From Patescibacteria group bacterium (lineage in GTDB: Bacteria; Patescibacteriota; Microgenomatia; Daviesbacterales; UBA10151): 64,000 nt of DNA. Location: NCBI GenBank assembly GCA_023379125.1, contig JAMCSY010000010.1:913-64912 (forward strand), in the 5' to 3' direction. Shown one piece after another: positions 7,118 to 41,344 of the stretch. Made by a program: the position numbers and the translations under genes. The notes below the pieces were generated by a model. It saw nothing but the letters and a program-made list of their open reading frames with translations. It searched no databases and was not told the DNA's origin. Every line of letters starts with the position of its first letter. Position 1 is the stretch's first letter.

Positions 7118-7836
7118 TATGTTTTTACCTCTTCATTTGGTTTTTCTTCCTCGCGATGAAATTCGTATTTAGCTTCATGCTTATCACTAACGATCTTACC
7201 CTTACTTAAAATTATCACCCGTTTTTTTAAGGCGTCAACAATATCTTTGTTGTGAGTAGCCATAATGACAGTAGTGCCCCAAGAGTTTATTTCAGCTAAG
7301 AGCTGAATCACTGCTGCAGCTGTTTGGGGGTCAAGGTCGCCGGTTGGTTCATCAGCCAAGACGATTGACGGTTTGCCGATCACTGCTCTCGCTATTGCGA
7401 CTCGCTGGGCTTCACCTCCAGAAAGCTGACGGGGGAAAAGTGCTCGTCGTTCCCAAATATCAAATAGCTTTAGGGTTCGCTCAACCTCTTTATTAACCTC
7501 AATCTCTTTAACTCCTCGCGCTTGAAGAGATAAAGCCACATTTTCAAACACAGTGCGATCATCTAGCAATTTGAAATCCTGAAAGACAAATCCAACCTTA
7601 CGCCGATAAATCGGTAATTTAGAGGAAACGATTCTAGTGATATCTACTTCATCAACAAAGACTTTGCCTGAGGAGGGTAAAAATTCTCGGGCTAAAATTC
7701 GCAGCAGCGTAGATTTACCAGCACCTGAAGGACCAACTAGAAAAACGAACTCACCATTTTGAATTTCTAAATTAATACTGTCGAGGGCAGTGATTGCTGA
7801 ACTAAATTTTTTATTAACATCTTGAAAAGAGATCAT
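7117..7836 (-). CDS. ftsE: Cell division ABC ATPase FtsE
   Basis: Walker A GPSGAGKSTLLRIL, ABC signature LSGGEAQRVAIARA and Walker B IVLADEPTGDLD. Confidence 0.85.
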   Translation of the reverse strand: MISFQDVNKKFSSAITALDSINLEIQNGEFVFLVGPSGAGKSTLLRILAREFLPSSGKVFVDEVDITRIVSSKLPIYRRKVGFVFQDFKLLDDRTVFENVALSLQARGVKEIEVNKEVERTLKLFDIWERRALFPRQLSGGEAQRVAIARAVIGKPSIVLADEPTGDLDPQTAAAVIQLLAEINSWGTTVIMATHNKDIVDALKKRVIILSKGKIVSDKHEAKYEFHREEEKPNEEVKT

Positions 7837-26620: not shown

Positions 26621-28298
26621 ATTTTGTTTTTTACTGGCGATTATTATTTCTTTGCCAGCAGTATGGACTCTCCTTCATCCAGGTTTTTTTGGTGTCTCTG
26701 ATGATTTACACGTAGCTTGGCTTTATGAAATGGGTCGTAGCCTGGCTGCTGGTCAGATTCCACCCAGATTTGTACCTGATTTGAGTTATGGTTTTGGCTA
26801 TCCTCTTTTTAATTTTGTTTTTCCTCTACCTTTTTATATTGGTGAGATCTTTCGTTTATTGGGTTCAAGTTTAGTGGACAGTGTCAAAGGAGTCTTCTTT
26901 TTAAGCTTACCAATTGGGGCTTTTTTTATGTATAAGTTGCTTAGGGAGTATACGAGTAATCTTCTGGCTTTAGCCGGAGTGGCTCTTTATTGTTATGCTC
27001 CTTATCGGGCTACTGATATATATGTGCGAGGAGCAATTGGGGAAATTTGGGCGTTTGCTTTACTACCACTAATAGCTTGGTCAATTCTCAAAGTGACGGA
27101 TTCTCAACAAAAGAAAATACTTTACTGGGTTGGGGTGGGTTCACTGGCTGTGGGAGGTTTAGTCTTAAGCCATAATATTGCCGCCTATATGTTTGCTCCA
27201 TATATTGTTTTATTGGTCTTGATGAGAGTTATTTCTCAAAAAAACTTCTCTATAAAAAAGATCTGGCCAGTTTTACTGACAGCTGTTGGAGGGTTTTTAG
27301 TCAGTATCTATTTCTGGTTACCAGCATTACTTGATAGCAGACAAGTCAAATATGATACTGTTTTTAACTTCATTGATCACTTTCCTACCTTAAAACAATT
27401 AGTAACACCGTATTTTGGTTATGGTGCTTCGGTGCCAGGACCTTATGATGGTATGTCATTTTTTTTGGGAGAAGGTAGTTTGTTGATGATTGTCATTGCT
27501 CTAATCAGCTTAGTTATTTTTTGGAAGAAATTGACAGTCAATCAACGCGTGCTTTTAATATGGGCCTGGTTAACAATTACCTCTGCTATTTTTATGATGA
27601 ACTATCGCTCTACTATTATATGGAAGACTATTCCTTTGCTGCCATATTTCCAATTCCCCTGGAGATTTTTAATGATGACAACTTTTGCGGTTCCACTATT
27701 GGTTATTGCTTTGCCTAAAACTAAATATACTAATCTTTTGGCAATTTTAATAATCTGTGTTGCTATTGTGCCTGCAATAAATGATTTTAAACCACAACAA
27801 TTCTTAAATAGATTTGATGATTATTATTTAAATAGATATATTCCCGTACCACAGGCATCAGTAGCATATCAGCAAACAGGTGAAGAATATCTGCGCTTAC
27901 CAATAGCCACATCTCAACGTCCTGATCACAACTATCCAATCCCCTCAATCAGTCAAGGCAAGATTAGTGATTTGGTGCAAATAAATAGTTTAAGTACAGA
28001 GTTGAATACCTCGACCGATCAGCCAGCCACCTTAAGCTACTATAAATATTTTTTTCCGGGTTGGATAGCAGAGATAGATGGTCAACAAGTTCCTTTACTA
28101 GCAGGACAACCTTTTGGACAAATCACTTTACAAGTACCATCGGGTCAACATCAAATAAGTATATATTTTACTGAAACACTGCTTAAGAGAATCCTGGATA
28201 TAATATCGATTTTGGCTATCTTAGTTAGCCTATTTGTGGTGATGAGCAATAACCTTTTATTAAAAATAACTCAAAAGTATAATATTAACAAACGATGA
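26592..28298 (+). CDS. Family B putative GT-C membrane protein (paralog 3)
   Basis: VSDDLHVAWLYEM, GQIPPRFVPDLSYGFGYPLFNF, RGAIGEIWAF, LSHNIAAY, FGYGASVPGPYDG, QFPWRFL. Confidence 0.6.
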   Translation: MQSLEKILNKFCFLLAIIISLPAVWTLLHPGFFGVSDDLHVAWLYEMGRSLAAGQIPPRFVPDLSYGFGYPLFNFVFPLPFYIGEIFRLLGSSLVDSVKGVFFLSLPIGAFFMYKLLREYTSNLLALAGVALYCYAPYRATDIYVRGAIGEIWAFALLPLIAWSILKVTDSQQKKILYWVGVGSLAVGGLVLSHNIAAYMFAPYIVLLVLMRVISQKNFSIKKIWPVLLTAVGGFLVSIYFWLPALLDSRQVKYDTVFNFIDHFPTLKQLVTPYFGYGASVPGPYDGMSFFLGEGSLLMIVIALISLVIFWKKLTVNQRVLLIWAWLTITSAIFMMNYRSTIIWKTIPLLPYFQFPWRFLMMTTFAVPLLVIALPKTKYTNLLAILIICVAIVPAINDFKPQQFLNRFDDYYLNRYIPVPQASVAYQQTGEEYLRLPIATSQRPDHNYPIPSISQGKISDLVQINSLSTELNTSTDQPATLSYYKYFFPGWIAEIDGQQVPLLAGQPFGQITLQVPSGQHQISIYFTETLLKRILDIISILAILVSLFVVMSNNLLLKITQKYNINKR

Positions 28299-29563
28299 AA
28301 TTATTTTCTCGGAAAATTTTGCTGGCTACAGTTTTACTAATTATTGTTAAGTTATTACTGGCGGCCATAAGTTTTCATGCAGATGTACAGGCTTTTGATT
28401 TTGGGGGTTGGCTAGTTAGTCATGGAAATATTGCTAATTTGTATGACTACTTGCCAAGTTTGCCTGCTGATAGTCCCATTCTTAAGATGTACCCGGTAGA
28501 CTTCTTGATTTACCCACCTCTAATATACTTTTACCATGGATTATTTGCTTTCATCTTTGATGTTGTATTAAGAGCTCCTTTTAAAGAATCTTTTCTCTTT
28601 GATGTTAATAATGTTTTTGGGGACTGGACTTTTAACTTACACCTACTTCTTTTAAAGGTTCCTTATCTATTTTTTGATTTAGCTACAGCCTATTTTTTGA
28701 GCCGGCTTTTTGATGATCGACGCAAAAAAACTATGGCCGCTGTCTTATGGCTAGTGAATCCAGTGAGTAATTATGCAACCTACTTGATGGGTCAATTTGA
28801 TGTTATACCAACTTTTTTTATGATTCTTTCTCTATGGGTAGTTCAGCGTCAAAAAAGCTGGTTATTTTTAAGAAGTGAAGTGCTCGGCACATTGGCTTTG
28901 GGATTAGGAGCTTCTTTTAAGATCTCGCCATTGTTTTTGCTTATCCCTCTTTCTTCTCTATTTTCCAGGTGGAAAACTCGGATCTTACTAGTTTTATTAG
29001 GCTTGGGAACATATGTTATATTTTTGTTACCATTTCTAGCTTCTTCAGGTTTTAGGCACTCTGCCTTAATAGCTAACCAGACGCTGAAAAGTTTATATCC
29101 AGAAATTATGATTTCTGGCGGAGAGGGGATTATGCTCTTTTTGCTTAGCTTGTTGTTTTTGTATTTTATTTTTTATAGCCGATTGGCTGAACGAACAAGT
29201 CTTTGGCAAAGATATCTGCTAACACTCCTATTATTTTTTACCTTTACTCACTATCACCCTCAGTGGTTTGTATGGATCACCCCCTTTTTTATTATTGAAC
29301 TTGTTTCTAATCAATTTAAGCATCTTTACTTAGTTTTAGTTACATTACTAAGTTTCTTGGGGCTATTATTTTTCTTTGATCCAGGATTATCAATTGGACT
29401 TTTTGCTCCTGTTGCACCTACTTTACACACAACGGCTAGTCTTTGGGATATAATTGGACTGAATATGGATTACACATTTTGGCGCAGCATCCTACAGACC
29501 CTCTTTGCTGCTGTAGCTGCTTTTTATTTCTATCTCTATTTTCCTAGATCATCTAAAATATAG
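28295..29563 (+). CDS. Polytopic membrane protein 'family C' (DUF2029/GT87-like putative GT-C); paralog of 36266-37519
   Basis: LKVPYLFFDLATAYFLSRLFDD..AAVLWLVNPVS...GQFDVIPT matches LKLPYLLLDILIAFLFLKLFNSD..GFVFWLFNPFS...GNLDVIVV in the paralog. The start overlaps the upstream gene by 4 nt. Confidence 0.5.
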   Translation: MKLFSRKILLATVLLIIVKLLLAAISFHADVQAFDFGGWLVSHGNIANLYDYLPSLPADSPILKMYPVDFLIYPPLIYFYHGLFAFIFDVVLRAPFKESFLFDVNNVFGDWTFNLHLLLLKVPYLFFDLATAYFLSRLFDDRRKKTMAAVLWLVNPVSNYATYLMGQFDVIPTFFMILSLWVVQRQKSWLFLRSEVLGTLALGLGASFKISPLFLLIPLSSLFSRWKTRILLVLLGLGTYVIFLLPFLASSGFRHSALIANQTLKSLYPEIMISGGEGIMLFLLSLLFLYFIFYSRLAERTSLWQRYLLTLLLFFTFTHYHPQWFVWITPFFIIELVSNQFKHLYLVLVTLLSFLGLLFFFDPGLSIGLFAPVAPTLHTTASLWDIIGLNMDYTFWRSILQTLFAAVAAFYFYLYFPRSSKI

Positions 29564-29576
29564 ATTTTAAAAACTT

Positions 29577-31285: not shown

Positions 31286-32788
31286 ATGGATGATTTCGCC
31301 GCAGAAGAACATCTTGATCCAACTACCGAAATTAATTTAGCTACTATCAAAAAGCGTGCTGTCAGTGGCGTAGTTGCTCTCACCGGTCGAATGATTATCC
31401 TGCAGGTTTTATCCCTTGTTGCTACCTTTTTGCTGACAGTTTTTCTGACACCAACACAATTTGGAGTGTTTTATGTTGTCTCAGCTGCGGTTAGTTTTTT
31501 TGCTTATTTTTCTGATATTGGGCTGGGTGCTGCATTAATCCAAAAAAAGGAAGGTTTAACTAGGAAGGAATTAGCAACTACCTTCACTGTTCAAAATGGT
31601 TTAGTGCTGATTATCTTATTAATAATATTTCTTGCAACACCTCTGTATCAAAAATGGTATCACCTAGACCAAGCTGCTATTTATTTATTGTGGGCTCTGG
31701 GGTTTAGCTTGCTACTCTCATCCTTAAAAAGTATTCCCTCACTTTTACTAGAGAGAGAATTAAATTTTAATAAACTAATAGTCCCGCAAATTGCAGAATC
31801 TTTGGTTTATCAATTTGTTGTAGTTTTTTTAGCTTGGAGAGGCTTTGGCATAAATAGCTTTACGATAGCAGTTCTGTTACGAGGTTTTACTGGACTTGGT
31901 TTAATGTATCTGATGAAGCCTTGGCGACCAAGTCTAGCCTTGGCAATCGACTCTTTACGAGGCTTACTCAGATTTGGTTTACCTTACCAAATAAATACTT
32001 TCTTAGCTGTGGCTAAAGATGATGGAATGATACTAGTTTTAGGTGGAATCTTAGGTTCAGCAAATATTGGCCTTTTAGGCTGGGCGCAAAAATGGGCTGC
32101 TGCACCGCTACGTTTTTTCATGGACCAGGTGATCAAGGTTACTTTTCCTGCCTATTCCAGAATGCAAGAACACGAAGAGGAGTTATCCAAAGCAATTAAT
32201 AAGTCTCTCCTTTTTATTTGTATCTTAGTTTTTCCAGCGTTAGTCACACTTTGCATTGCAGCACCATCTTTAGTTTTGCTAATTCCGAAGTATACCAAGT
32301 GGCAACCAGCGTTAGTTGCCTTATCCTTAATTTCGCTAAACTCAGCTTGGGCAGCCGTTACCACACCGCTAACTAATGTTTTAAATGCAATAGGTAAGAT
32401 AAAAACTACATTCAAATTAATGGTGATGTGGACAGTTCTGTCTTGGCTTTTTATTCCCAGTCTATCTTATTTTTATGGAGTTAACGGAGCTGCCTTAGGT
32501 TACACGCTTGTAGGGATGAGTTCAATAGTGGCTATTCTGATCGTGCTACGTTTTGTCAAATTGGATCTATTTGTTAGTGTGGGTAAACCGTTGCTGAGTG
32601 CAGTAATAATGGGAAGCGTGATGGTAACTCTGCAACGATTAATGCCATTGTCATGGGTTAATTTGGTAATGATGTTTGTAGTTGGTATTACGGTTTATGT
32701 ATTGCTTAATTATCTTTTACTTAGGTCTGTTATCCAGCAGGATATTAGTAAAGTCTTGACCAGCTTTAAAGGGGCTAAGGGTGTATGA
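31286..32788 (+). CDS. Lipid-linked oligosaccharide flippase, Wzx-like (MOP superfamily, polysaccharide biosynthesis protein)
   Basis: The 500-aa protein has about 14 TM helices. Its composition and the conserved R/K-rich loop (LLRGFTGLGLMYLMKPWRP) are typical of Wzx/RfbX. Confidence 0.65.
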   Translation: MDDFAAEEHLDPTTEINLATIKKRAVSGVVALTGRMIILQVLSLVATFLLTVFLTPTQFGVFYVVSAAVSFFAYFSDIGLGAALIQKKEGLTRKELATTFTVQNGLVLIILLIIFLATPLYQKWYHLDQAAIYLLWALGFSLLLSSLKSIPSLLLERELNFNKLIVPQIAESLVYQFVVVFLAWRGFGINSFTIAVLLRGFTGLGLMYLMKPWRPSLALAIDSLRGLLRFGLPYQINTFLAVAKDDGMILVLGGILGSANIGLLGWAQKWAAAPLRFFMDQVIKVTFPAYSRMQEHEEELSKAINKSLLFICILVFPALVTLCIAAPSLVLLIPKYTKWQPALVALSLISLNSAWAAVTTPLTNVLNAIGKIKTTFKLMVMWTVLSWLFIPSLSYFYGVNGAALGYTLVGMSSIVAILIVLRFVKLDLFVSVGKPLLSAVIMGSVMVTLQRLMPLSWVNLVMMFVVGITVYVLLNYLLLRSVIQQDISKVLTSFKGAKGV

Positions 32789-35700
32789 GGACTATTAAAT
32801 TCATTTTCGTTGTTATTTTAAGCTGTTTCTTCTTTAGAGCACTTACGGTACATGCTGTAAGTAGTTCCTTTGTCACGATAGTAAATCCAATTCGCGGTGA
32901 GGATACTTGGGACTTACCAAATCAGCAACCAGTTGATGCAGTAATGGGACAAATGCAAATTATCAATCGTTATCAATTGTCTGCTACGTGGCTAATACGA
33001 TTTGATGCTTTATCGGATCATAATATAATCAATGTTCTTAAAAGTAGCCCGATTTCTCAAGAGAAAGGTTTATTTTTAGAAGTAACTCCAAGTTGGACAA
33101 CAACAGCTGATGTAAATTATCGTCAGTCTGCAGTTTGGCACAATGCCGGAAGCGTATTTTTAACAGGCTATAATCAAGCTGAGCGATTAAAGCTTATCGA
33201 CACTGCGTTTATCAAATTTAAAGAAGTCTTTGGTTATTATCCAAAATCAGTGGGAGCTTGGTGGGTGGATAGCTACTCACTCCAATATATGTCTACTAAG
33301 TATGGAGTGACTAGCTGCTTAATTGTGGCAGATCAATTCTCAACTGATAACTATCAAATCTGGGGCCAATATTGGGAGGCACCATATTATCCAGCCCAAC
33401 AAAATGCTTTAATTCCAGCTCAAACTGCTGAGCAGAAAATTCCTGTGGTCATGATGCAGTGGGCTAGTCGTGACCCGGTAAACGGTTATGGTGAAGGGGT
33501 TCAAGAAAGTACATATTCTGTTCAAGCTAATGATTATCTTGATTATCACAATTTGGGCAGTGATTATTTTGCCAAGTTACTGGATATCTATACGAAGCAA
33601 CCACTTAACTCTGTTAATCAACTAGTGGTAGGTTTAGAGAATTCCTATTCTTGGACTAAGTACCAAAGTGAATATGATCAACAGCTTGCACTAGTGGCAG
33701 CTAGACAACAGCAAGGGCAATTTCAAGTTAAAAGCATGGAGGATTTTGCCAATTATTATAGCCAAACTTTTCCTAGTGTTTCATCAGAACATATTATTGT
33801 TGCAGACGATCCGTTAGGTACAAATCAAAAAGCTGTGTGGTTTATGGATCCCTACTATCGAATAGGTTGGTTCTATAACAATCAAGGGAGTGTTATTCTC
33901 GATATTCACCAATATATATCTGGCTCACAAGAATTGTGTTTTGATCAAGCCTGCCAAAATTTAAATTTTGCTACTTCTGCAACAAGGGTACTTGACGATG
34001 TGACAAATCATCAACAAGATTTACTAGACCCAGGTCAGATTAGCAATTTTCAGGTTGAACACTCAACTGATAAGTATATTATTAAGTATACCAATGAGGC
34101 AGGAAGAACTAGAGAAGTTCAGTTATTACCGCGGGATATTGGGATTGACAATCAGATAACTGCTATTGATAGTTTTATTCTGCAAGTAACTACAAAGCAA
34201 AATCAAACAAATAGTTTGTCTCTAAACTCGACTGATTATAAACAATATCAGGAATCCTTGGCAAGCTTGTTACGAGGGGTACTGAAATTTATTCTCTTCT
34301 TGTTAATAGGGGTTTTCATCCCAGGTTATTTAATAACTAGGAAAATCAAAGAGAGTTTGTTGTGGCAATTTTTTGTTTCTGTCGTGGTAGGAATTTCTGC
34401 TTTAACCCTGTTGGCTTTTATCGCTGGTTACTTAAAAATGGAAATCATCATCTATCTCTATCTAGGTTTGGCTGTGGTTGCCTTTGCTTACTATAAATGT
34501 TATCAGCAACTACACCTAAAACATCTCCTTAGGAAATTGGATAGTTATACGTTGGTTGTGTTGCTGATAATAATTGCAGGAACAATTTTTCAGTGTTTAG
34601 CAATTGTTAAATCAGGTTGGGTTTATCCATTTGGAATGGGTTTTTTAGGTCCACTTGGCCACGATGGGATTTGGCATCAAGCGTTAATCAACCAACTAGA
34701 GCAACAAGTGCCTCCACTTAATCCATCATTTTCTGCAACTTTGTTATCAAACTACCACTACTTTTATGATTTGTTGTTAGCTCAAACTGATAAACTTACT
34801 ACTATTGGAGTACTAGATTTACTCTACAGATTTTACCCAATCTTACTCTCTTTGCTATTAGGATTAGGTACGTACTTATTGGCTGACAGGTTATTTAATA
34901 ATAAATGGGTGAACTTAACCAGCTTGTATTTTGTTTACTTTGGCAGTAGTTTTGGTTGGATTGTGCAATATTTGCATAGCAGTGAATTATTGGGTGGAGA
35001 GTCTGCTTTTTGGATGAATCAGCCAGTATCAATGAATCTTAACCCGCCATTTGCAATCTCATTAATCATGCTGATAAGTCTGGTCTTACTGATTATTAAA
35101 TCACAACGGGATGGTAAAACTTTGGCAGTGATGATTGCTTTTGTCCTCATTGGAGGTGTGCTGATCGAATTTAAAGTGTATGCTGGCTTGCTTGCCTTGG
35201 TAGGATTGGGGGGATTGGCTTTTGTCCAAGTGTTAAAGAAAGATTTTTATTATTTGAAAATGTTATTTGCAACCACAATTATTTCTTTGACAGTTTTTTT
35301 ACCACAGAACAGTCAATCTGCAGAATTGTTGGTTTTTTCACCATTTTGGTTCATTCATTCGATGGTAGATTTTACTGATCGAGTAGGTTGGTTAAAGCTA
35401 TCACAAGCGCGTCTGGCATATTATCAAAGAGGGGAAACTCTCAAGTACATACTGGTTGAGGTATTAGGGCTAACTATTTTTTTAGTTGGTAATTTGGGTA
35501 CGAGAATAATTGGATTGTTTTCTTCACCTAAGCTGCTGAAGGTTAAATTTTTTCAAAAGGGAGAAGTCCTTTTTATCACCCTGATTGGTCTAGCCTCATT
35601 GGCAATTCCAATTTTTTATATTCAACAGGGTAATCCCTGGAATACTATTCAATTTAGCTACTATGCTTTATATTTACTTTCAGTAGGAGCAGGCGCTAGT

Positions 35701-36255
35701 TTATATTTATTATCAAAAAAGTTACCCACAATATTGGGTTTAGGATTTATTTTGTTAGTACTTGTAATAACACCCATTAGTTCTTATGCTACTTTTAAAA
35801 GTGGTTTTTATAATTTGCCACCAGCTCGATTAATGACTGGAGAGTTGGCAGCCTTGGATTTTTTACATAATTTACCTTCTGGGATTGTATTAACTTATCC
35901 ATATGATAAAAACCTGAAGAATAGTTTTACTAATCCTTATCCTCTCTATATGTATGAAACAACATCATATGTTTCAGCTTTTTCTGGCAAAACAACTTTT
36001 TTAGAAGACGAGATCCAGCAAGAGATACTAGAAGGTAATCAGTCAAGCGGAGATAATTATCAAAAGAGACTGGTTGAGGAAAACGATTTCTTTAATAGCA
36101 AAGATATTAGCTGGTCGATTGCGTTTCTAAATAACAATCACATTGAATATATTTATTTGCCTATACAATATCACCTTGCCTTGAACATAGACTCCTTAGG
36201 ATTGAAGAATATTTTTGAAAATGATGAGGCTGTAATTTACCAGAAAATGCAGTAA
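32785..36255 (+). CDS. Fusion protein: N-terminal ~480-aa secreted domain (uncharacterised, possibly carbohydrate-active) plus C-terminal 'family D' polytopic membrane module (HDGIWH motif)
   Basis: A signal peptide MRTIKFIFVVILSCFFFRALTVHA leads into a W/Y-rich soluble domain. The membrane region then carries GHDGIWHQALINQ...NYHYFYD...YRFYP...SLLLG...GSSFGWIV...GGESAFW...NPP, shared with the 38169-40139 protein. Confidence 0.6.
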   Translation: MRTIKFIFVVILSCFFFRALTVHAVSSSFVTIVNPIRGEDTWDLPNQQPVDAVMGQMQIINRYQLSATWLIRFDALSDHNIINVLKSSPISQEKGLFLEVTPSWTTTADVNYRQSAVWHNAGSVFLTGYNQAERLKLIDTAFIKFKEVFGYYPKSVGAWWVDSYSLQYMSTKYGVTSCLIVADQFSTDNYQIWGQYWEAPYYPAQQNALIPAQTAEQKIPVVMMQWASRDPVNGYGEGVQESTYSVQANDYLDYHNLGSDYFAKLLDIYTKQPLNSVNQLVVGLENSYSWTKYQSEYDQQLALVAARQQQGQFQVKSMEDFANYYSQTFPSVSSEHIIVADDPLGTNQKAVWFMDPYYRIGWFYNNQGSVILDIHQYISGSQELCFDQACQNLNFATSATRVLDDVTNHQQDLLDPGQISNFQVEHSTDKYIIKYTNEAGRTREVQLLPRDIGIDNQITAIDSFILQVTTKQNQTNSLSLNSTDYKQYQESLASLLRGVLKFILFLLIGVFIPGYLITRKIKESLLWQFFVSVVVGISALTLLAFIAGYLKMEIIIYLYLGLAVVAFAYYKCYQQLHLKHLLRKLDSYTLVVLLIIIAGTIFQCLAIVKSGWVYPFGMGFLGPLGHDGIWHQALINQLEQQVPPLNPSFSATLLSNYHYFYDLLLAQTDKLTTIGVLDLLYRFYPILLSLLLGLGTYLLADRLFNNKWVNLTSLYFVYFGSSFGWIVQYLHSSELLGGESAFWMNQPVSMNLNPPFAISLIMLISLVLLIIKSQRDGKTLAVMIAFVLIGGVLIEFKVYAGLLALVGLGGLAFVQVLKKDFYYLKMLFATTIISLTVFLPQNSQSAELLVFSPFWFIHSMVDFTDRVGWLKLSQARLAYYQRGETLKYILVEVLGLTIFLVGNLGTRIIGLFSSPKLLKVKFFQKGEVLFITLIGLASLAIPIFYIQQGNPWNTIQFSYYALYLLSVGAGASLYLLSKKLPTILGLGFILLVLVITPISSYATFKSGFYNLPPARLMTGELAALDFLHNLPSGIVLTYPYDKNLKNSFTNPYPLYMYETTSYVSAFSGKTTFLEDEIQQEILEGNQSSGDNYQKRLVEENDFFNSKDISWSIAFLNNNHIEYIYLPIQYHLALNIDSLGLKNIFENDEAVIYQKMQ

Positions 36256-36265
36256 AGTAAAAAAT

Positions 36266-37519
36266 ATGAAATCTTTAATCAATGAACTCAATAGATTAAG
36301 TTTAATAAAATTGTTTGCTCTGGCAATTCTCTTAAGGGTATTATTGATGCCTTTTTTCTTTCACCCAGACATAAAAACCTATAACTTCCAAGCTCAATTT
36401 TTAAAGAATGGAGTTTGGAATATTTATTCCTATTTATTAGAAAACAAACAATCATTACCCCTTAAGGAAGAGTTTGTCTATTTTCCATTAACCTACTATT
36501 TTTTAGGTGGATATCAAATAATCGCCTCGCCACTATTGGGAAGCGATTTTAATAATTGGTTGAATAATGCATCGGTAGGTGAATCACAAGCGCAAAATAT
36601 TTTTCGCTATCTTTTTGTTTTAAAGCTGCCTTATCTGTTATTAGATATATTAATTGCTTTTCTTTTTCTTAAACTTTTTAATTCAGATAAAACAAAAAAA
36701 GCAGGTTTTGTCTTCTGGCTCTTTAATCCATTTTCATTAATCCTTATCTACATTTTTGGTAATCTTGATGTTATTGTTGTGATGATAACTGTATTAAGTT
36801 TATTACTAGTCAAAAGAAATAAGTTAGTTTTCGCTGCTCTTTGTCTTGGTTTAGGTTCTGCCTTCAAAGCCTATCCGATGTTATTTTTGCCATTCCTGCT
36901 TTTAGTAGGTAATTCTATTTCTGAAAGGCTAAAAATACTAGTTGCTGGCTTAGGTAGCTTTTTAGTGATTATTGTACCGTTTGTTATTAAACCAGGTTTT
37001 TCTCAAGCAGCTTTGGTCTCAGGTCTTACTACCAGAATCATTTCCTCTGGGCTTAGTATTGGTTTTGGTGAAACTTTGATCTTTCCAATAATCTCCCTTG
37101 CCGCCTTATTTGCGTATGCTCTGAGTAAAGGCGTTCTGGAAAAAGAGCAGCTATGGAAATATTACTTAAGTGTGCTTTTGTTGGTTATCTCATCGATTCA
37201 TTTTCATATTCAATGGTTACTCTGGTTAGTGCCTTTTGTGGTTATTCTTTTGGTTAAATCTCAAAAATATATAACTTTTATATGGTTAATCGGCTTAATA
37301 GCATTGGCGATCCCTATTTTATATGAGGATAAATTTATGAGTGTTTCTTTGTACTCAGTAATTAGTCCCTTATTCAGTCTTTTACCAATTCCTTTTGGGG
37401 CTGTGCAAAAGCTCTATGATCCATATGCTGTTCAAAGTGTCCTGCAAAGTGGTTTAGTTGGGATGAGTTTGATATTAATTTGGCAGATCCTTAAGGGGGA
37501 AGAATATGAGACTGGTTAA
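36266..37519 (+). CDS. Polytopic membrane protein 'family C' (DUF2029/GT87-like putative GT-C)
   Basis: See 28295-29563. The two share the FxxxNPxS...G(Q/N)xDV block and TM architecture. Confidence 0.5.
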   Translation: MKSLINELNRLSLIKLFALAILLRVLLMPFFFHPDIKTYNFQAQFLKNGVWNIYSYLLENKQSLPLKEEFVYFPLTYYFLGGYQIIASPLLGSDFNNWLNNASVGESQAQNIFRYLFVLKLPYLLLDILIAFLFLKLFNSDKTKKAGFVFWLFNPFSLILIYIFGNLDVIVVMITVLSLLLVKRNKLVFAALCLGLGSAFKAYPMLFLPFLLLVGNSISERLKILVAGLGSFLVIIVPFVIKPGFSQAALVSGLTTRIISSGLSIGFGETLIFPIISLAALFAYALSKGVLEKEQLWKYYLSVLLLVISSIHFHIQWLLWLVPFVVILLVKSQKYITFIWLIGLIALAIPILYEDKFMSVSLYSVISPLFSLLPIPFGAVQKLYDPYAVQSVLQSGLVGMSLILIWQILKGEEYETG

Positions 37520-38168
37520 AGTTAATACAATCTTAGTCTTTATTGCTTTATTATTGATGCCAGCATTATTGTCACTAGGAATCAATAATATTCCATATGG
37601 TAATCAGCCATCTACGGATTGGTCAGTAAAAGTCTTTCAGAATAATATTATCGAGCAAAAATTTACTGCCCAAGTCAATAACTTATCTGCTATTGGTATT
37701 AGTATTAAAAATCCTAACTTAGCGAATACAGGTGATATCGTTTTGCAACTACTAAGTAGCGATAGGCATATCCTTAGAACAAGCACTCTAAATGGTCAAC
37801 ATATTCCAGATGGTGGCTTTGAGCAGTTTACTTTTATGCCTGTTAGTGATTCGCTTAATCAGCCGTATATATTAGAGTTATCAGCACCTTCCTCCGTTGA
37901 TCTTGATTCTTATGAAATATTTATGACAAGACAACAAATATCAGCAGTTGATCCAGCGATGAGTAATGGAGTGTTGGTGCCGGGAAGTATGGCTTTTGTG
38001 CAGTATGAACATCCTCGTAATAAACTTACCTTATTAGGTAGTATTTACCTGACTTGGATCAATAAACTAGTGGGAGATATGAGCTTTTTGGTTTTTTATT
38101 TGATGCTAGTTATAAGTTTAGTCGTGATAATTGCACCAAACGTAAAACTCATAGGCAGAAAAGAGTAA
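37506..38168 (+). CDS. Hypothetical exported protein with C-terminal TM (220 aa)
   Basis: The N-terminus is hydrophobic (ILVFIALLLMPALLSLG) and a C-terminal TM is present. No motifs were recognised. Confidence 0.4.
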   Translation: MRLVKVNTILVFIALLLMPALLSLGINNIPYGNQPSTDWSVKVFQNNIIEQKFTAQVNNLSAIGISIKNPNLANTGDIVLQLLSSDRHILRTSTLNGQHIPDGGFEQFTFMPVSDSLNQPYILELSAPSSVDLDSYEIFMTRQQISAVDPAMSNGVLVPGSMAFVQYEHPRNKLTLLGSIYLTWINKLVGDMSFLVFYLMLVISLVVIIAPNVKLIGRKE

Positions 38169-40139
38169 TTACTGGATTTTCCAAATCTCAATTTCCTGAT
38201 TATTGTATTCTTTTGTAAAAGGTGTTTTTGCTAAGTCAGCTTTCGGTTTTTGACTTTCAGAGAAATAAAGATAATTAGCATTGCTGCTAATCAATAATCT
38301 AGTGAGACGTTGAGTATCAGTGGTAGTAAAAATATCTTCTAGAATTTTCTCGCGATTACCCCACCTATACCCCATGATATCTACCTGCTCAGTATCTGCT
38401 AGATAAACAACATGATTAGAAAAAGCAGCTACGTACGAAGAATCAGACCAGGCCCAGATATCCGGAATTGTTGATTGTTGATGAAGATATTTGTTATAGG
38501 GAGGGGTAATAATAATTGCAGATTGAGGAATATTTTTCTGAAGATAACTAAGTGCCTGTAGTTCATCTGCATTTATCTTGGTAAATGGAGGGCGGTGATA
38601 AAAATCATAAAGTAACCCTATTTGGGTAGGTATGGCTAGGAGAAGAATTAAGATACTAACAATAACCTTGATACTGAACAATTTAATTTTAGTGATGATT
38701 CGGCTTATTTCAATCGCTCCCAAAATGCCCATTAATAATAGGAAATATTGTAAAAACTGAATAGAGTTGCTAGCAACGCCTTTTTGTAAAAACAATAATG
38801 GTAGAGTAAACGACACTAAGATAACGGTGACAAAAAATAGATTGTAATAGTTTGTTAAAATCTTGAATTGTATTTTAATATATTGCCAAAAACCAAGTAC
38901 TCTCATGCCTAAATTACCAAATAGGAAAATAAAGAATGCGGTGAATTCTACTTGTAAAACCCGTTTGTAATTATGATCAGCGAGATATGTTTGTCTTCTT
39001 AGTTCAAGATCTAGCCAGTTTAGTCGATTATCAGCAACTACCATTGTTCTGATGTACCACCAAGGTTGCCAAATTAAAAAAGCCGCTGAACCACTTGTAT
39101 TAGGAAGATAGAGTAACGCCGATATTAATCCAGATATTAAGGTAAGAATAGCTAAATTTGCTGATTTATCCTTAAAAAACTGCCAAATTGATATTATTCC
39201 CAGACCAGAAAAAACTACGACTCCAGCATAGACTTTAAATACTACTAAACAACCTATTAGCAGGCTAAGCTCGGTTAGTAAACGTTTGTTAGGATGATGT
39301 AAATAATTTATTAAGAAAATTAAAATCGCCATTACAACAATAAGGGATGCAATTTGTGGGGGGTTGCCAATTGAACTTTGAATTTGTGAAGCCCAAAAAA
39401 TTGATTCACCGCCGACTGAGTGGTCTTTAATAAAAGTCACAATGTAACCAAAACTGCCCACAAAGTAGACAAAAATCATTGACCATATTCCTGATAAGAA
39501 ATTACCACCCATTTTATTGCCGATGATATAAGCACTTGCACCGAGTAGCAGTGAGTAAAAAATGGGGAAAAAACGAAAGTATAGGTCTAGAGCTGATATT
39601 TTGAAATAATAGTTAAAAAAAGCTGGGGCTAAATCTGAGAAAAAATGGTAATTAACTAATCTGAAACCCGCGAAATCTGGGTTCTGCAAAGGCATCCCTT
39701 TTTGAATCTCATTCATCAAAGCCAAATGCCAAGAAGCATCATGGGCATGGGAACTCCAAAAAACTAAGTTTCCGTTTTGCATAATCCCACTAGGAGCAAT
39801 AACAGCAAGTTGTCCGATAATGCCAATAATATACACAAAAAGGAATAATCCTAATTGCTTCTTGGGAAAGATCTTTTGTTTATGAAAATTAAAGGATAGT
39901 GTCTTAAGTCCAATTAAGATAGAGATTGCAATAAAAATAAACACTAATAAAGGGATGTGAATGATGAGAGTCAGATAATAGAGTAGAGAAAATGCCACAA
40001 AACCAACAATCGTACCCAAAGTGATTTTTTCCCAAAAACTATATTCTATGTTTTTGCTAATGAGCATCAACCCAGGTATGGTAAAGCAGGTTATAATAGC
40101 TATCAGAAAAATAGTACTAGTGTATAAACTTGCAAACAT
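38169..40139 (-). CDS. 'Family D' polytopic membrane protein (HDASWH motif), paralog of the membrane module of 32785-36255
   Basis: SSHAHDASWHLALMNE...NYHFFSD...FRFFP...SLLLG...GSFGYIV...GGESIFW...NPP. It is the only minus-strand gene in the 18-57 kb block and converges on 37506-38168 with abutting stop codons. Confidence 0.6.
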   Translation of the reverse strand: MFASLYTSTIFLIAIITCFTIPGLMLISKNIEYSFWEKITLGTIVGFVAFSLLYYLTLIIHIPLLVFIFIAISILIGLKTLSFNFHKQKIFPKKQLGLFLFVYIIGIIGQLAVIAPSGIMQNGNLVFWSSHAHDASWHLALMNEIQKGMPLQNPDFAGFRLVNYHFFSDLAPAFFNYYFKISALDLYFRFFPIFYSLLLGASAYIIGNKMGGNFLSGIWSMIFVYFVGSFGYIVTFIKDHSVGGESIFWASQIQSSIGNPPQIASLIVVMAILIFLINYLHHPNKRLLTELSLLIGCLVVFKVYAGVVVFSGLGIISIWQFFKDKSANLAILTLISGLISALLYLPNTSGSAAFLIWQPWWYIRTMVVADNRLNWLDLELRRQTYLADHNYKRVLQVEFTAFFIFLFGNLGMRVLGFWQYIKIQFKILTNYYNLFFVTVILVSFTLPLLFLQKGVASNSIQFLQYFLLLMGILGAIEISRIITKIKLFSIKVIVSILILLLAIPTQIGLLYDFYHRPPFTKINADELQALSYLQKNIPQSAIIITPPYNKYLHQQSTIPDIWAWSDSSYVAAFSNHVVYLADTEQVDIMGYRWGNREKILEDIFTTTDTQRLTRLLISSNANYLYFSESQKPKADLAKTPFTKEYNNQEIEIWKIQ

Positions 40140-40168
40140 AGTTAAGATAAATAAAGTTTATCATCTTA

Positions 40169-41344
40169 ATGGATAGAGTACCAAGAAGCCTGACAAAGTA
40201 TCTTACATCTAATACAGCTGGTTTGTTACTGGTGATTATTTTATATGCTTTGTTCTCAGGACTGGTACTGAATTCTCTATATCCATTTCACTTAGCAACA
40301 GAGTCTTTATTAGTGTTAACTATTTTAGGAATTGCTTGGCAAATCCCATTATGGCTTAGTTACATACTTGGTTTTATTAATTTATTGTTATTATGGTTGA
40401 TTGTAAAAAAAGTATTTGGCTATAGAGTTGCTCTGTTTTGCTCATTAACTTATGCAACTTCACCGTGGATCTCATATTTAGTAGTTGGAGACTCTCTGAC
40501 AACATGGTTATTAACCATCTGGCTCATTATTTTTTATGGTTTATTCTGTTTAAGCCATAGTTTTTGGAAGATAATATTTCTTATTGCTGGCTGCATTATG
40601 TTGATTTTTAGTTCAGTGTTAATGTGGCCAGCCCTTTGTGTCTTACTAGTGACTCTTTACATTAAGAAAAATTCTTCTTTCCTTACCATACAAAATTTTC
40701 ATCTGTTGACCGCTGTTAGCCTGTTAACATTTATGGCACTTTTGCTGACTAATTATTCAATGGTTAAACATAGCCTGGGAAGCCAGTTATTAATTATCCA
40801 GAATATTAGTATTGTTAATACTGTTAATCTGCTCAGGGGTGAAGATAATCAAGCAGGTATTGGCAAACTAGGTTTTATTTTGGATAATAAGTATGCTTAT
40901 GGTGCGCTGTATTTTAGCTCGAGATTACTAGAAAATATTAATCCAGTTAACTATTTTGTCTCCAGTACTAATTTTATAAGACAATCAAACACACCTCCAA
41001 TCCTGTTTGGCTGGATAATTCCTTTAATATTGGGTATTGGAGTTTGGCAAAAGGTCTGGAAGATGACTCGTTGGTCAGTTGTTTTTGTATTGTGTCTTCT
41101 GACACCTTCTCTTGTCTCTAGTGATGGTTTCAGTATTAATAAAATTGGATTTGTCTCTCCATTGTTATTTGTAACTTGTGGTGTGGGTCTTGAACGACTA
41201 CTTAGCTTAAATAAATATCGAATATGGTTTGCACTGATCATAATAGCGATCCTTATACAGCTTGTGTTTGTCGCCAATGATGTTACTCTACGCGAAAATG
41301 TCCGTCTAGATTATTTACGTTTTGCGCAAATATCAGAAAATTAA
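40169..41344 (+). CDS. Membrane protein resembling a truncated/degenerate ArnT-like paralog (lacks the WDE...GYNAYS loop)
   Basis: ALFCSLTYATSPWISY matches ALIGAALTAISPWLIY of the downstream 41345 protein. The N-terminal catalytic loop motif and the C-terminal domain are absent. Confidence 0.4.
   Translation: MDRVPRSLTKYLTSNTAGLLLVIILYALFSGLVLNSLYPFHLATESLLVLTILGIAWQIPLWLSYILGFINLLLLWLIVKKVFGYRVALFCSLTYATSPWISYLVVGDSLTTWLLTIWLIIFYGLFCLSHSFWKIIFLIAGCIMLIFSSVLMWPALCVLLVTLYIKKNSSFLTIQNFHLLTAVSLLTFMALLLTNYSMVKHSLGSQLLIIQNISIVNTVNLLRGEDNQAGIGKLGFILDNKYAYGALYFSSRLLENINPVNYFVSSTNFIRQSNTPPILFGWIIPLILGIGVWQKVWKMTRWSVVFVLCLLTPSLVSSDGFSINKIGFVSPLLFVTCGVGLERLLSLNKYRIWFALIIIAILIQLVFVANDVTLRENVRLDYLRFAQISEN

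What the first reader, a model, noticed from the sequence alone, without database searches (positions are those of the whole stretch)
32785..40139. Family D: an HDxxWH membrane module, once fused to a large secreted domain and once free on the opposite strand
The 1156-aa protein joins a roughly 480-aa signal-peptide-bearing, W/Y-rich soluble domain to a polytopic membrane region. The soluble domain may be a carbohydrate-active beta/alpha-barrel-like fold. The membrane region shares a long collinear block with the 656-aa protein on the minus strand at 38169-40139. The shared motifs are HD(G/A)(I/S)WH.AL(I/M)N, NYH(Y/F)F.D, (Y/F)RF(Y/F)P, SLLLG, GSFG(W/Y)IV, GGES(A/I)FW and NPP. A built-in periplasmic domain suggests a processive or editing enzyme, such as a transferase with a fused hydrolase or deacetylase, working on the exported glycan. 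The minus-strand copy is the only gene of opposite polarity in about 40 kb, which suggests a separate regulatory unit.
Basis: seen in the sequence. Interest (0 to 1): 0.65.

Follow-up and report, generated by a model that had tools for sequence, protein, structure and literature searches.

The report
Uncatalogued GT-C glycosyltransferase pair, one barrel-fused
Two paralogous membrane proteins in a candidate-phyla (Microgenomates) cell-surface sugar locus are predicted to have the fold of lipid-linked-sugar (GT-C) glycosyltransferases but match no curated family, and one carries an extra outward-facing barrel domain of the hydrolase/deacetylase type, an accessory domain I found no report of on this enzyme class.

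Summary
Protein A (32785..36255, +, 1156 aa) and protein B (38169..40139, -, 656 aa) share one collinear membrane module: 32% identity over 627 columns, E 2e-75, with all seven motifs present.

AlphaFold2 models are confident (pLDDT 92 for both). The shared module has a GT-C glycosyltransferase fold; the closest solved structures are STT3/AglB/PglB, DPY19, AftA and ArnT. No Pfam or NCBIfam model matches it.

The Asp of the HD motif sits at the start of the first outward-facing loop of the core. It is invariant in 134 of 134 diverse representatives and aligns with the DE motif of the neighbouring PMT_2 paralogues.

A's N-terminal domain is a 7-stranded beta/alpha barrel plus a beta-sandwich. 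It is homologous to PDB 3LM3 (DUF3863, function unknown) and lacks the CE4 His-His-Asp metal site.

Both genes, their neighbours and B's lone inverted orientation are conserved across Daviesbacteria and Woesebacteria. The barrel is fused only within the A-like clade. It also occurs in a roughly 675-aa protein that keeps both outside domains but lacks the GT-C core.

Donor, acceptor and the barrel's activity remain unknown. This is a new variant of a known enzyme class, of moderate interest.

The parts
32785..36255 (+). Gene A, 1156 aa: signal peptide + DUF3863-like barrel + beta-sandwich + 3 linker TM helices + GT-C core + C-terminal outside domain
   Evidence: ORF. AF2 model with pLDDT 92.1 and pTM 0.86. 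More than 120 full-length homologues at 47-55% identity. Public record: MCL4366975.1, 'hypothetical protein'.
32785..32859 (+). Signal peptide of A (residues 1-25, MRTIK...VHA|VS)
   Evidence: Read from the sequence. Helix 2-17 in the model. Cleavage itself is inferred.
32860..33774 (+). 7-stranded beta/alpha barrel of A (about residues 26-330), DUF3863/3LM3-like
   Evidence: Strands 28-36, 67-72, 93-97, 155-158, 177-181, 222-226 and 278-282. Foldseek to 3LM3: E 2e-10, TMt 0.64. Profile versus 3LM3: E 3.5e-6. Invariant polar residues lie at the C-terminal strand ends: R37, D74, E99, D162, D183/D188, R229/D230, E285.
33775..34194 (+). Beta-sandwich subdomain of A (about residues 331-470)
   Evidence: Strands 336-460 in the model. 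The second matched block to 3LM3 covers profile positions 303-385.
34258..34491 (+). Three N-terminal extension TM helices (residues 492-569), also present in B (residues 2-80) but absent from the ~560-aa A-like relatives
   Evidence: Helices 492-518, 525-550 and 554-569. Representatives of ~560 aa start matching at profile position ~95. TM parity analysis.
34543..35802 (+). GT-C core of A (residues 587-1006; about 11 TM helices plus outside loops)
   Evidence: Foldseek hits to DPY19, AglB, STT3, PglB, AftA and ArnT. hhalign of the family against the locus's PMT_2 paralogues: probability 79.7%, E 1.5e-5.
34660..34692 (+). HDGIWHQALIN motif of A (residues 626-636), at the start of the first juxtamembrane helix of the first outside loop. 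D627 is the proposed catalytic base.
   Evidence: H626, D627, W630 and H631 are invariant in 97 sequences. The Asp is invariant in 134/134 representatives. It aligns with the DE motif of PMT_2 paralogues. The catalytic role is inferred.
35812..36252 (+). C-terminal extracytoplasmic alpha/beta domain of A (residues 1010-1156)
   Evidence: Model secondary structure. Homologous to the C-terminal domain of the ~675-aa family (hhalign probability 96.9%, E 1.4e-10). B's equivalent domain matches the AglB C-terminal globular domain 3vu0 (TMt 0.56, E 0.09).
38169..40139 (-). Gene B, 656 aa: free Family D module (3 extension TM helices + GT-C core + C-terminal domain)
   Evidence: ORF. AF2 model with pLDDT 92.4 and pTM 0.93. 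More than 120 orthologues at 47-56% identity. Foldseek to STT3, AglB, DPY19 and PglB at 4e-10 to 7e-7.
39711..39743 (-). HDASWHLALMN motif of B (residues 133-143)
38442..38459 (-). B-specific IWxWxD motif in the C-terminal domain (residues 561-566)
   Evidence: I561 97%, W562 98%, W564 100% and D566 100% conserved in the B family (invariant list). A has PLYMYE at the aligned position.
31286..32788 (+). Wzx-type flippase gene; its stop codon overlaps A's start codon (ATGA)
   Evidence: Polysacc_synt_3, E 5e-51. Overlap read. Wzx lies immediately next to the A-like gene in 15 related loci. One record encodes a 1639-aa Wzx-A fusion (P0178).
36266..37519 (+). g417, a polytopic protein with a weak GT87-like match; conserved between A and B
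   Evidence: GT87 at 21.8 bits, below threshold. Paralogue of 28295..29563. Conserved position.
37506..38168 (+). g220, a small bitopic protein convergent with B; the two 3' ends abut
   Evidence: Always adjacent to B. The 3' ends abut or overlap in 35 of 39 loci, most often by 44-50 nt.
40169..41344 (+). g391, a polytopic protein with no family match; it diverges from B with 29 bp between the two start codons

Best explanation
A and B are paralogous members of an uncatalogued family of GT-C (class GT-C_A) membrane glycosyltransferases that, in these searches, was found essentially only in the Microgenomates group of candidate-phyla bacteria. They belong to a conserved locus of about 40 kb that assembles a cell-envelope glycan.

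Shown:
- The shared module is one homologous unit with a predicted GT-C fold: three extra N-terminal TM helices, a core of about 11 TM helices, and a C-terminal outside domain.
- The family's invariant polar residues (A numbering: D627, Y657-H658, K797; near-invariant H631, E739, N753, Q947, Q956) all lie in or next to outward-facing loops of the models. N903 is also near-invariant, but it lies towards the cytoplasmic end of a helix.
- A's N-terminal domain is a secreted DUF3863/3LM3-type 7-stranded barrel plus a beta-sandwich. It has a conserved pocket rich in carboxylates and aromatic residues.

Inferred mechanism:
- Cytoplasmic GT2/GT4 enzymes build a polyprenyl-linked glycan, which the adjacent Wzx flips. 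GtrB/DPMS-like GT2s make polyprenyl-phosphate sugars.
- On the outer face, the Family D enzyme binds the lipid-phosphate donor in the membrane-embedded groove, with K797 contacting the phosphate.
- D627, at the start of the first juxtamembrane helix and possibly together with H631/H658/E739 as a metal site, activates the acceptor hydroxyl.
- The C-terminal domain helps to select the acceptor. A and B differ there (B has IWxWxD, A does not), so they probably serve different acceptors or steps.
- A's barrel sits on the same outer side and binds the growing glycan. Less certainly, it trims that glycan as a hydrolase rather than as a metal-dependent deacetylase.
For: - Paralogy: E 2e-75.
- Models: pLDDT 92.1 and 92.4, with secondary-structure elements in one-to-one order.
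- Fold: with the A model, DPY19 5.7e-8, AglB 9e-7, STT3 6.5e-6, PglB 1e-5, AftA (TMt 0.54) and ArnT. With the B model, STT3 2e-9, AglB 3e-9, DPY19 4e-9, PglB 6e-7, AftA (TMt 0.56) and ArnT 2e-4.
- Link to locus paralogues: hhalign against the locus's PMT_2-type GT-C paralogues gives probability 79.7%, E 1.5e-5 over 466 columns. It places B H133-D134 on their invariant D34-E35.
- Conservation: D134, Y164, H165 and K302 (B numbering) are 100% conserved in about 134-140 representatives clustered at 50% identity.
- Topology: there is a signal peptide on the N-domain, and the number of TM helices between the N-domain and the HD loop is always even (2 or 4). Unfused A-like forms have 1. Loop charges follow the positive-inside rule.
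- Context: a Wzx gene overlaps A's start. The window also holds five GtrB/DPMS-like GT2s, including a GT2+GtrA fusion, about 16 further GT-C-like proteins, and NDP-sugar enzymes.
- Background: a catalytic Asp after the first TM helix, and accessory outside domains on GT-C enzymes, are described for characterised GT-Cs (PMC11127046).
- N-domain: 3LM3 by fold (E 2e-10, TMt 0.64) and by profile (E 3.5e-6). Conserved polar residues sit at the C-terminal ends of all seven strands.
Against: - No Pfam or NCBIfam model matches A or B, nor any of 70 B-family members.
- The sequence profile finds no solved GT-C structure.
- Foldseek TM-scores are only about 0.45-0.56 at about 10% identity, so the subfamily, donor type (P- or PP-linked) and acceptor cannot be read off.
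- No biochemical data exist for any member or for 3LM3/DUF3863, and four literature searches found nothing on this family or locus.
- I had no access to model coordinates, so the geometry of the proposed site and the position of the barrel relative to it were not measured.
- D162 and D183 of the barrel are not conserved in 3LM3, and the barrel could be a non-catalytic binding domain.
Confidence: 0.7

Rival explanations
1. Family D proteins are oligosaccharyltransferase-like (or ligase- or polymerase-like) enzymes that take the Wzx-flipped polyprenyl-diphosphate oligosaccharide and transfer it en bloc. The acceptor would be a protein such as an S-layer protein or pilin, another envelope acceptor, or the next repeat unit. 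In this way they would replace the Wzy/WaaL/LCP functions that were not detected in the locus. A-like and B-like paralogues would carry out two such steps, for example polymerisation and ligation.
For: - The best Foldseek E-values for B are to STT3, AglB and PglB (2e-9 to 7e-7), and its C-terminal domain matches the AglB C-terminal globular domain 3vu0 (TMt 0.56, E 0.09).
- Wzx is immediately adjacent to the A-like gene in 15 related loci, overlaps A's start in the window, and is fused to A in one record (P0178, 1639 aa).
- No Wzy_C, O-antigen-ligase or LCP family was detected among the window's ORFs of at least 150 aa.
- The B family has a fully conserved IWxWxD motif in the C-terminal domain, at a position roughly comparable to WWDYG of OSTs. 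The motif comes; the position comparison rests on my own recollection of OST structures.
Against: - There is no STT3 (PF02516) match for any member.
- A true WWDYG motif is absent, and the W residues are missing altogether in A.
- DPY19, AftA and ArnT, which use lipid-P-monosaccharide donors, score almost as well, and AftA has the best TM-score.
- No initiating phosphoglycosyl transferase was detected in the window.
- g391 and other unassigned polytopic proteins could be the missing polymerase or ligase.
Confidence: 0.2
2. A's N-terminal domain is a CE4-type metal-dependent de-N-acetylase or esterase, so that A is a transferase-deacetylase in the manner of PgaB/IcaB-type polysaccharide modification.
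For: Foldseek matches the domain to CE4-like proteins: HP0310 PgdA 3qbu (1.7e-4), PuuE 3cl6, PA1517 1z7a (TMt about 0.58), and PdaC and BC1960 more weakly.
Against: - CE4 enzymes use an Asp-His-His metal triad plus a catalytic His (established knowledge). In this domain only one His (H119) is invariant, and even that falls below 90% when divergent fused members are included.
- There is no Polysacc_deac_1 Pfam match even at E up to 1.
- The best match is 3LM3/DUF3863, a separate family.
Confidence: 0.1
3. The module is not an enzyme but a transporter or scaffold of the envelope machinery, and the conserved motifs serve structural roles or partner binding.
For: No activity has been shown for any member, and no curated family matches.
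Against: - Transporter folds appear only at Foldseek probabilities below 0.2.
- The invariant residues are polar or charged and cluster in outward-facing loops at the position of GT-C catalytic motifs.
Confidence: 0.05

Closest known systems
STT3 / AglB / PglB oligosaccharyltransferases (CAZy GT66, GT-C_A)
   Same: Best Foldseek E-values for B (2e-9 to 7e-7; TM about 0.45-0.50). Shared layout: polytopic core, an acidic motif in the first outside loop, and a C-terminal globular outside domain. The AglB C-terminal domain 3vu0 matches B's C-terminal domain (TMt 0.56).
   Different: About 10% identity and no PF02516 match. HD instead of DxD. No WWDYG motif: B has IWxWxD and A has neither. There are three extra N-terminal TM helices. 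A carries an N-terminal barrel that is absent from OSTs.
Lipid-P-monosaccharide GT-C_A enzymes: DPY19 (GT98), AftA (GT85), ArnT (GT83), PMT (GT39), and the PMT_2 paralogues of this same locus
   Same: Fold matches: DPY19 4e-9, AftA TMt 0.56 with rmsd 7.8, ArnT 2e-4, Pmt4 7e-3. Profile-profile link to the locus's PMT_2 proteins, with HD aligned on their DE motif. The locus encodes GtrB/DPMS-like synthases for such donors.
   Different: No PF13231 or PF02366 match for A, B or 70 relatives. The motif set is distinct: HDxxWH, NYH, GGES, NPP, FKVY.
BDI_3119 of Parabacteroides distasonis (PDB 3LM3; DUF3863, PF12979), 'putative glycoside hydrolase/deacetylase'
   Same: Best structural match of A's N-domain, covering barrel and beta-sandwich: 420 columns, TMt 0.64, E 2e-10. 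Sequence-profile homology at E 3.5e-6, including a shared PFYPS...PAQ block. PF12979 is precomputed on many A homologues.
   Different: 3LM3 is a free soluble protein of unknown function. D162 and D183 of A are not conserved in it. The current Pfam copy gives no hit on the window's own domain.
GT-C enzymes with accessory extracytoplasmic domains: EmbA/B/C, AftD, GT136 ORF12 (carbohydrate-binding modules)
   Same: The same design principle: a GT-C core plus an outside domain that engages the acceptor glycan (PMC11127046).
   Different: Those accessory domains are CBMs. Here the domain is an enzyme-type 7-stranded beta/alpha barrel of the GH/deacetylase superfamily with a conserved carboxylate-rich pocket. 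It also exists without the GT-C core, in the ~675-aa family.
CE4-like deacetylases (HP0310 PgdA, PA1517, PuuE) and the GH38 N-terminal barrel
   Same: The same 7-stranded barrel superfamily by Foldseek (TMt about 0.56-0.60 for CE4-like; probability 0.96-0.98 for GH38).
   Different: No His-His-Asp metal triad and no Pfam match.

Membership tests
GT-C glycosyltransferase superfamily (class GT-C_A) | Polytopic membrane fold superimposable on solved GT-C enzymes | tested here: met
   Foldseek probability 1.00 to DPY19, STT3, AglB, PglB, AftA, ArnT and Pmt4, from two independent high-confidence models. TM-scores are about 0.45-0.56.
GT-C glycosyltransferase superfamily (class GT-C_A) | Conserved acidic residue at the start of the first extracytoplasmic loop, after the first core TM helix | tested here: met
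   D627 (A) / D134 (B) follows core TM 587-608 / 93-114 and begins helix 627-640 / 131-147. It is invariant in 134/134 representatives and aligns with the DE motif of PMT_2 paralogues.
GT-C glycosyltransferase superfamily (class GT-C_A) | Active-site loops face the extracytoplasmic side | tested here: met
   Computational only: signal peptide on the N-domain, even TM parity between the N-domain and the HD loop in all fused forms, and positive-inside loop charges.
GT-C glycosyltransferase superfamily (class GT-C_A) | Uses a polyprenyl-phosphate-linked sugar donor | not testable with these tools
   Context only: GtrB/DPMS-like GT2s and Wzx in the locus.
Oligosaccharyltransferase STT3/AglB/PglB (GT66, PF02516) | Match to the STT3 family model | tested here: not met
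   No hit for A, B or 70 B-family members.
Oligosaccharyltransferase STT3/AglB/PglB (GT66, PF02516) | WWDYG motif in the C-terminal domain | tested here: not met
   B has a conserved IWxWxD instead; A has PLYMYE at the aligned position.
PMT_2 / ArnT-like (PF13231, PF02366) | Match to the family model above the gathering score | tested here: not met
   No hit at E up to 0.1. There is only a profile-profile link to the locus paralogues at probability 79.7%. UniRef names two members 'RgtA/B/C/D-like domain-containing'.
DUF3863 (PF12979; structure 3LM3) | Sequence and fold homology to the family's solved member | tested here: met
   Profile versus 3LM3: E 3.5e-6. Foldseek: E 2e-10, TMt 0.64 over 420 columns. 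PF12979 is precomputed on many close homologues.
DUF3863 (PF12979; structure 3LM3) | Pfam model hit on the window's own protein | tested here: not met
   No hit at E up to 1 with the current Pfam copy.
CE4 polysaccharide deacetylase (NodB domain) | Asp-His-His metal triad and a catalytic His | tested here: not met
   Only H119 is invariant in 32 sequences, and no His reaches 90% in the 46-sequence set.
CE4 polysaccharide deacetylase (NodB domain) | Match to Polysacc_deac_1 | tested here: not met
Wzy / WaaL-type polymerases and ligases | Family model or fold match | tested here: not met
   No Wzy_C match. No SEDS, WaaL or Wzy structure appears among the 50 Foldseek hits listed for either model.

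The most novel reading that the evidence does not exclude
Family D could be a Microgenomates-specific lineage of OST-like, en bloc glycan transferases or polymerases that replaces the missing Wzy/WaaL/LCP steps. Wzx would hand the flipped lipid-linked oligosaccharide directly to the A-like enzyme. A's DUF3863 barrel, together with the shared C-terminal domain, would form a second catalytic site that trims or sizes the product. That would make A a bifunctional synthase-hydrolase. The ~675-aa protein would then be the stand-alone trimming unit, and B (with IWxWxD) a protein- or wall-directed ligase whose conserved antisense placement couples its expression to that of the operon.
Probability: 0.15. 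Interest if true: 0.7.

Novelty: new variant of a known kind. Interest (0 to 1): 0.45.

Why it matters
Candidate-phyla (CPR) bacteria cannot be grown in pure culture, and their cell envelopes are largely unknown. This locus, with about 16 GT-C-like enzymes, five lipid-sugar synthases and a flippase, is conserved across Daviesbacteria and Woesebacteria and probably makes a major surface glycan. Family D is a large set (1843 cluster representatives at 50% identity) with no curated family model, so it is currently annotated as hypothetical or with an automatic, generic name. Assigning it a GT-C fold, a candidate catalytic Asp and Lys, and a DUF3863 partner domain gives concrete targets for expression and mutagenesis. 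It also provides the first functional context for DUF3863, and it could seed a new CAZy GT family. The result is useful rather than surprising, because GT-C enzymes with accessory outside domains are an established theme.

Tried and rejected
- **Family libraries.** Pfam and NCBIfam scans of A, B, the isolated N-domain and three A homologues gave nothing above threshold. The only hits were TgpA_N at 16 bits and other noise. A scan of 70 B-family members found only two spurious single hits.
- **Sequence search of the PDB.** Profiles of the GT-C module found nothing.
- **Profile comparison with the PTPS_related paralogues of the locus.** No relation (probability 0.6%).
- **Promoter and terminator scan around B.** 15 promoter-like sites against 17.2 expected by chance, so it was uninformative.
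- **RNA searches.** The tRNA and Rfam scans of the window were empty.
- **Literature.** Searches for DUF3863, 3LM3, BDI_3119, CPR with GT-C, and Microgenomates, Woesebacteria or Daviesbacteria glycosyltransferases found nothing relevant.
- **Interpretations rejected.** I rejected a canonical CE4 deacetylase (no metal triad), membership of STT3/GT66 (no model hit, no WWDYG) and a Wzy/WaaL-type fold (no fold hits).

Full report
**1. Observation**

A is 32785..36255 (+), 1156 aa. B is 38169..40139 (-), 656 aa.

BLASTP aligns A 512-1124 with B 21-625 in one collinear block: 198/627 identities, 250 bits, E 2e-75. The only deviation is an extra Ser in A's GSSFGWIV.

A starts with a typical signal peptide (MRTIK, a hydrophobic core, then VHA|VS). 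Its first 480 residues are hydrophilic with 9% W+Y.

B is the only non-nested minus-strand ORF of at least 80 aa between 18673 and 58438.

**2. Where the window comes from and how common the proteins are**

A is identical to MCL4366975.1, a 'hypothetical protein' of a Patescibacteria MAG. NCBI annotates B (MCL4366978.1) as only 632 aa.

Both proteins have more than 120 close full-length relatives:
- B family: about 650 aa, 47-56% identity.
- A family: about 1116-1162 aa, 47-55% identity at 97-100% coverage.

Nearly all named sources are Daviesbacteria, Woesebacteria or 'Microgenomates group'. An exhaustive profile search of 1.84 billion cluster representatives found 1843 members at E up to 1e-3, and 906 at E up to 1e-30.

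**3. The membrane module has a GT-C glycosyltransferase fold**

Neither Pfam nor NCBIfam recognises A or B. None of 70 B-family members hits a Pfam family. Sequence profiles find no solved relative of the module.

AlphaFold2 with family alignments gave confident models: A has pLDDT 92.1 and pTM 0.86; B has pLDDT 92.4 and pTM 0.93. The helices and strands of B correspond one-to-one, in order, to those of A 492-1156.

Foldseek against the PDB matches the module only to GT-C enzymes:
- With B: STT3 2e-9, AglB 3e-9, DPY19 4e-9, PglB 6e-7, AftA 2e-5 (best TM-score, 0.56), ArnT 2e-4, then Pmt4, AftD and Emb. Transporters appear only at probabilities below 0.2.
- With A: the same set.

A profile-profile comparison ties the family to the PMT_2-type GT-C paralogues of the same locus: probability 79.7%, E 1.5e-5, 466 columns. 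The alignment starts at B residue ~91, which is the fourth helix. It places B H133-D134 on the paralogues' invariant D34-E35.

The core therefore begins at helix 587-608 of A (93-114 of B). The first three helices are an extension, and they are missing from many ~560-aa relatives.

**4. The candidate active site**

In the models, the core's first helix is followed by a loop of about 65 residues that contains two short helices. HD sits at the N-terminus of the first helix (A 627-640), and NYH just precedes the second (A 660-672). In characterised GT-C enzymes this is where the proposed catalytic Asp lies (PMC11127046, read).

Conservation across about 134-143 representatives clustered at 50% identity:

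| Residue (B numbering) | A equivalent | Conservation |
|---|---|---|
| D134 | D627 | 134/134 |
| Y164, H165 | Y657, H658 | 134/134 each |
| K302 | K797 | 140/140 |
| H138 | H631 | 130/134 |
| N259 | N753 | 135/137 |
| N409 | N903 | 138/141 |
| Q452 | Q947 | 141/143 |
| Q461 | Q956 | 141/143 |
| E245 | E739 | 117 Glu + 11 Asp of 137 |
| H133 (the His of 'HD') | H626 | 104 of 133; replaced by Arg in 16 |

By helix order and the positive-inside rule, all of these residues except N409 lie in or near outward-facing loops. N409 lies towards the cytoplasmic end of a helix.

Topology is supported independently by TM counts. Fused proteins have 4 TM helices (~1150-aa forms) or 2 (~1020-1070-aa forms) between the secreted N-domain and the HD loop. 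Unfused A-like forms have 1. The parity always places the HD loop outside.

I infer, but have not shown, that D627 is the catalytic base, possibly within a His/Asp/Glu metal site, and that K797 binds the donor phosphate.

**5. The N-terminal domain**

The model shows seven parallel strands alternating with helices (residues 28-330), followed by a beta-sandwich (336-460).

Structural matches:
- The best match is 3LM3 ('putative glycoside hydrolase/deacetylase' BDI_3119): E 2e-10, TMt 0.64 over 420 columns.
- Next come CE4-like barrels (HP0310, PuuE, PA1517; TMt about 0.58), and then ChbG and the GH38 barrel more weakly.

A profile built from the domain reaches 3LM3 by sequence as well (E 3.5e-6), with a shared PFYPS...PAQ block. 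Many close homologues carry a precomputed PF12979 (DUF3863) hit, although the current Pfam copy gives none on the window protein.

Invariant or near-invariant polar residues sit at the C-terminal end of every strand: R37, D74, E99, D162, D183/D188, R229/D230 and E285. They are accompanied by many aromatic residues. This is the usual signature of a beta/alpha-barrel active or binding site.

Only one His (H119) is invariant, so the CE4 Asp-His-His metal site is absent. I therefore rank the possibilities as follows: glycan binding or hydrolysis first, deacetylation last. No experimental data exist for DUF3863 in the searched literature.

**6. Fused, split and a third architecture**

Scoring representatives against A- and B-specific HMMs shows two clades. 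All 24 proteins of at least 1000 aa are A-like. The A-like clade also contains 30 unfused representatives of 520-599 aa. B-like proteins are about 650 aa.

In 42 loci from GTDB species representatives:
- The A-like gene carries the barrel in 9 loci, the Daviesbacteria type, like the window.
- It lacks the barrel in at least 16 loci, the Woesebacteria type.

A search with the barrel alone uncovered a third family of about 675 aa. It consists of a signal peptide, the same barrel and sandwich (39% identity to A, E 9e-97), two TM helices, and a C-terminal domain. That C-terminal domain is homologous to the C-terminal outside domain of Family D (hhalign probability 96.9%, E 1.4e-10). In effect, this protein is A without its GT-C core.

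The barrel and the C-terminal domain therefore travel together without the transferase core, which suggests that they cooperate. A and B differ in that C-terminal domain: the B family has a fully conserved P-x-I-W-x-W-x-D-(T/S)-x-Y motif that A lacks. This points to different acceptors.

**7. Genomic context**

From 18.6 to 58.4 kb the window is one plus-strand array. The functions listed here include three genes that lie outside that span, at 11.5-15.7 kb:
- Five GtrB/DPMS-like GT2s, one of them fused to a GtrA domain.
- Eight further GT2/GT4 enzymes.
- A Wzx flippase.
- About 16 polytopic GT-C-like proteins in several paralogue families: PMT_2 x7, PTPS_related x4, a GT87-like pair, one PIG-V-like protein, and Family D x2.
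- An NDP-sugar pyrophosphorylase and a GDP-mannose dehydratase.

No initiating phosphoglycosyl transferase, Wzy_C, O-antigen ligase or LCP family was detected in the window.

The Wzx stop codon overlaps A's start codon (ATGA). Wzx is the immediate neighbour of the A-like gene in 15 related loci. One record encodes a 1639-aa Wzx-A fusion (P0178), although a single short contig could reflect an assembly error.

The block Wzx - A - (PMT) - g417 - g220 - B(inverted) - g391/PMT is conserved at about 50% protein identity.

**8. The inverted gene**

In all 37 related loci where genes were detected on both sides, B's nearest neighbours are on the opposite strand.

B and g220 are convergent. Their 3' ends abut or overlap in 35 of 39 loci, most often by 44-50 nt; in the window the gap is 0. 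On the other side, only 29 bp separate the start codons of B and g391.

B's promoter must therefore lie inside a neighbouring gene, and transcription of the operon must either cross B antisense or restart inside it. The consensus promoter scan was uninformative. Whether this arrangement is a regulatory device or a frozen inversion cannot be decided here.

**9. Most likely function**

Shown: the homology, the GT-C fold, the invariant outward-facing Asp/Tyr-His/Lys, the DUF3863 barrel with a conserved pocket, and the conserved glycan-locus context.

Inferred: Family D enzymes transfer sugar from polyprenyl-phosphate-linked donors to an envelope acceptor on the outer face. A-like enzymes work directly downstream of Wzx. 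A's barrel engages, and possibly trims, the glycan.

The main rival is an OST-, ligase- or polymerase-like en bloc transfer of the Wzx-flipped oligosaccharide. It is really a more specific version of the same model. It has some support: OSTs give the best E-values, the C-terminal domain resembles that of AglB, Wzx is adjacent, and no Wzy, WaaL or LCP was found. However, it fails the sequence-level membership tests for GT66.

**10. Comparison with known families, and novelty**

Family D works like a GT-C_A enzyme. It is not a member of STT3, PMT_2/ArnT or any other curated family that I could test. UniRef's automatic name for two relatives ('RgtA/B/C/D-like domain-containing') shows that the GT-C hint already exists in public annotation for some members.

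Accessory outside domains on GT-C enzymes are known as carbohydrate-binding modules (PMC11127046). An enzyme-type DUF3863 barrel as the accessory domain, and its stand-alone counterpart that keeps the Family D C-terminal domain, appear to be undescribed.

I rate this a new variant of a known kind, of moderate interest.

Noticed in passing
L003:4706-6790 (P0447); also P0413-P0507, e.g. P0428 (L004:10001-12040) and P0471: A third architecture occurs in the same lineages: proteins of about 675 aa made of a signal peptide, the same DUF3863-like barrel and sandwich, two TM helices, and a C-terminal domain homologous to Family D's C-terminal outside domain (hhalign probability 96.9%). In effect this is 'A without the GT-C core'. 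No copy was found among the window's ORFs of at least 150 aa.
   Followed up: partly
window 38150-38190 and 40139-40169; loci L005-L046: B and the convergent g220 gene abut or overlap at their 3' ends in 35 of 39 related loci, most often by 44-50 nt; in the window the gap is 0. Only 29 bp separate the divergent start codons of B and g391. B is inverted relative to both neighbours in 37 of 37 loci. This leaves no room for ordinary terminators or promoters.
   Followed up: partly
window 40068-40139 (-): The NCBI record for B (MCL4366978.1) is 632 aa and starts at Met25. The conserved residues F11, F19, P22 and G23 of the B family lie upstream of that start, so the 656-aa start at 40139 is the better call.
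   Followed up: yes
P0178 (1639 aa, Logan contig of 8.8 kb): One record encodes a single ORF that joins the Wzx flippase (Polysacc_synt domains) to a full A-type protein. Because the two genes overlap by ATGA in the window, this could be a genuine fusion or a one-base assembly error.
   Followed up: no
window 18673-58438: The window has an unusually high density of GT-C-like membrane proteins, about 16 in several paralogue families: PMT_2 x7; PTPS_related x4 at 23200-31274; a GT87-like pair at 28295 and 36266; a PIG-V-like protein at 57221; and Family D x2. There are also five GtrB/DPMS-like GT2s. This resembles the extracytoplasmic assembly of mycobacterial lipoglycans more than a standard Wzx/Wzy locus.
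   Followed up: partly
window 14542-15735 (+): A GT2 domain is fused to a GtrA/DPMS transmembrane domain (397 aa), which looks like a polyprenyl-phosphate-sugar synthase with a built-in GtrA-like module.
   Followed up: no
L009:15425-17365, L011:15446-17377, L013:12046-13698, L020:13800-15770; L003:6783-8738: Some genomes carry a third, and in places more divergent, Family D copy next to the A-like gene. These copies are 34-43% identical to B. The copy in L003 is only 26% identical.
   Followed up: no
Loci L007-L009, L011, L012, L015, L017, L020, L024, L025, L027, L029, L034, L042: Many MAG records titled 'uncultured Gammaproteobacteria bacterium' carry this Microgenomates-type locus at about 50% protein identity and full synteny. 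Those titles look like placeholder labels or mislabels.
   Followed up: no
window 4962-7836 (-): The window also contains an FtsE/FtsX-like ABC pair followed by an M23 peptidase with a PcsB-type coiled coil, which looks like a cell-division hydrolase module. It is unrelated to the finding.
   Followed up: no
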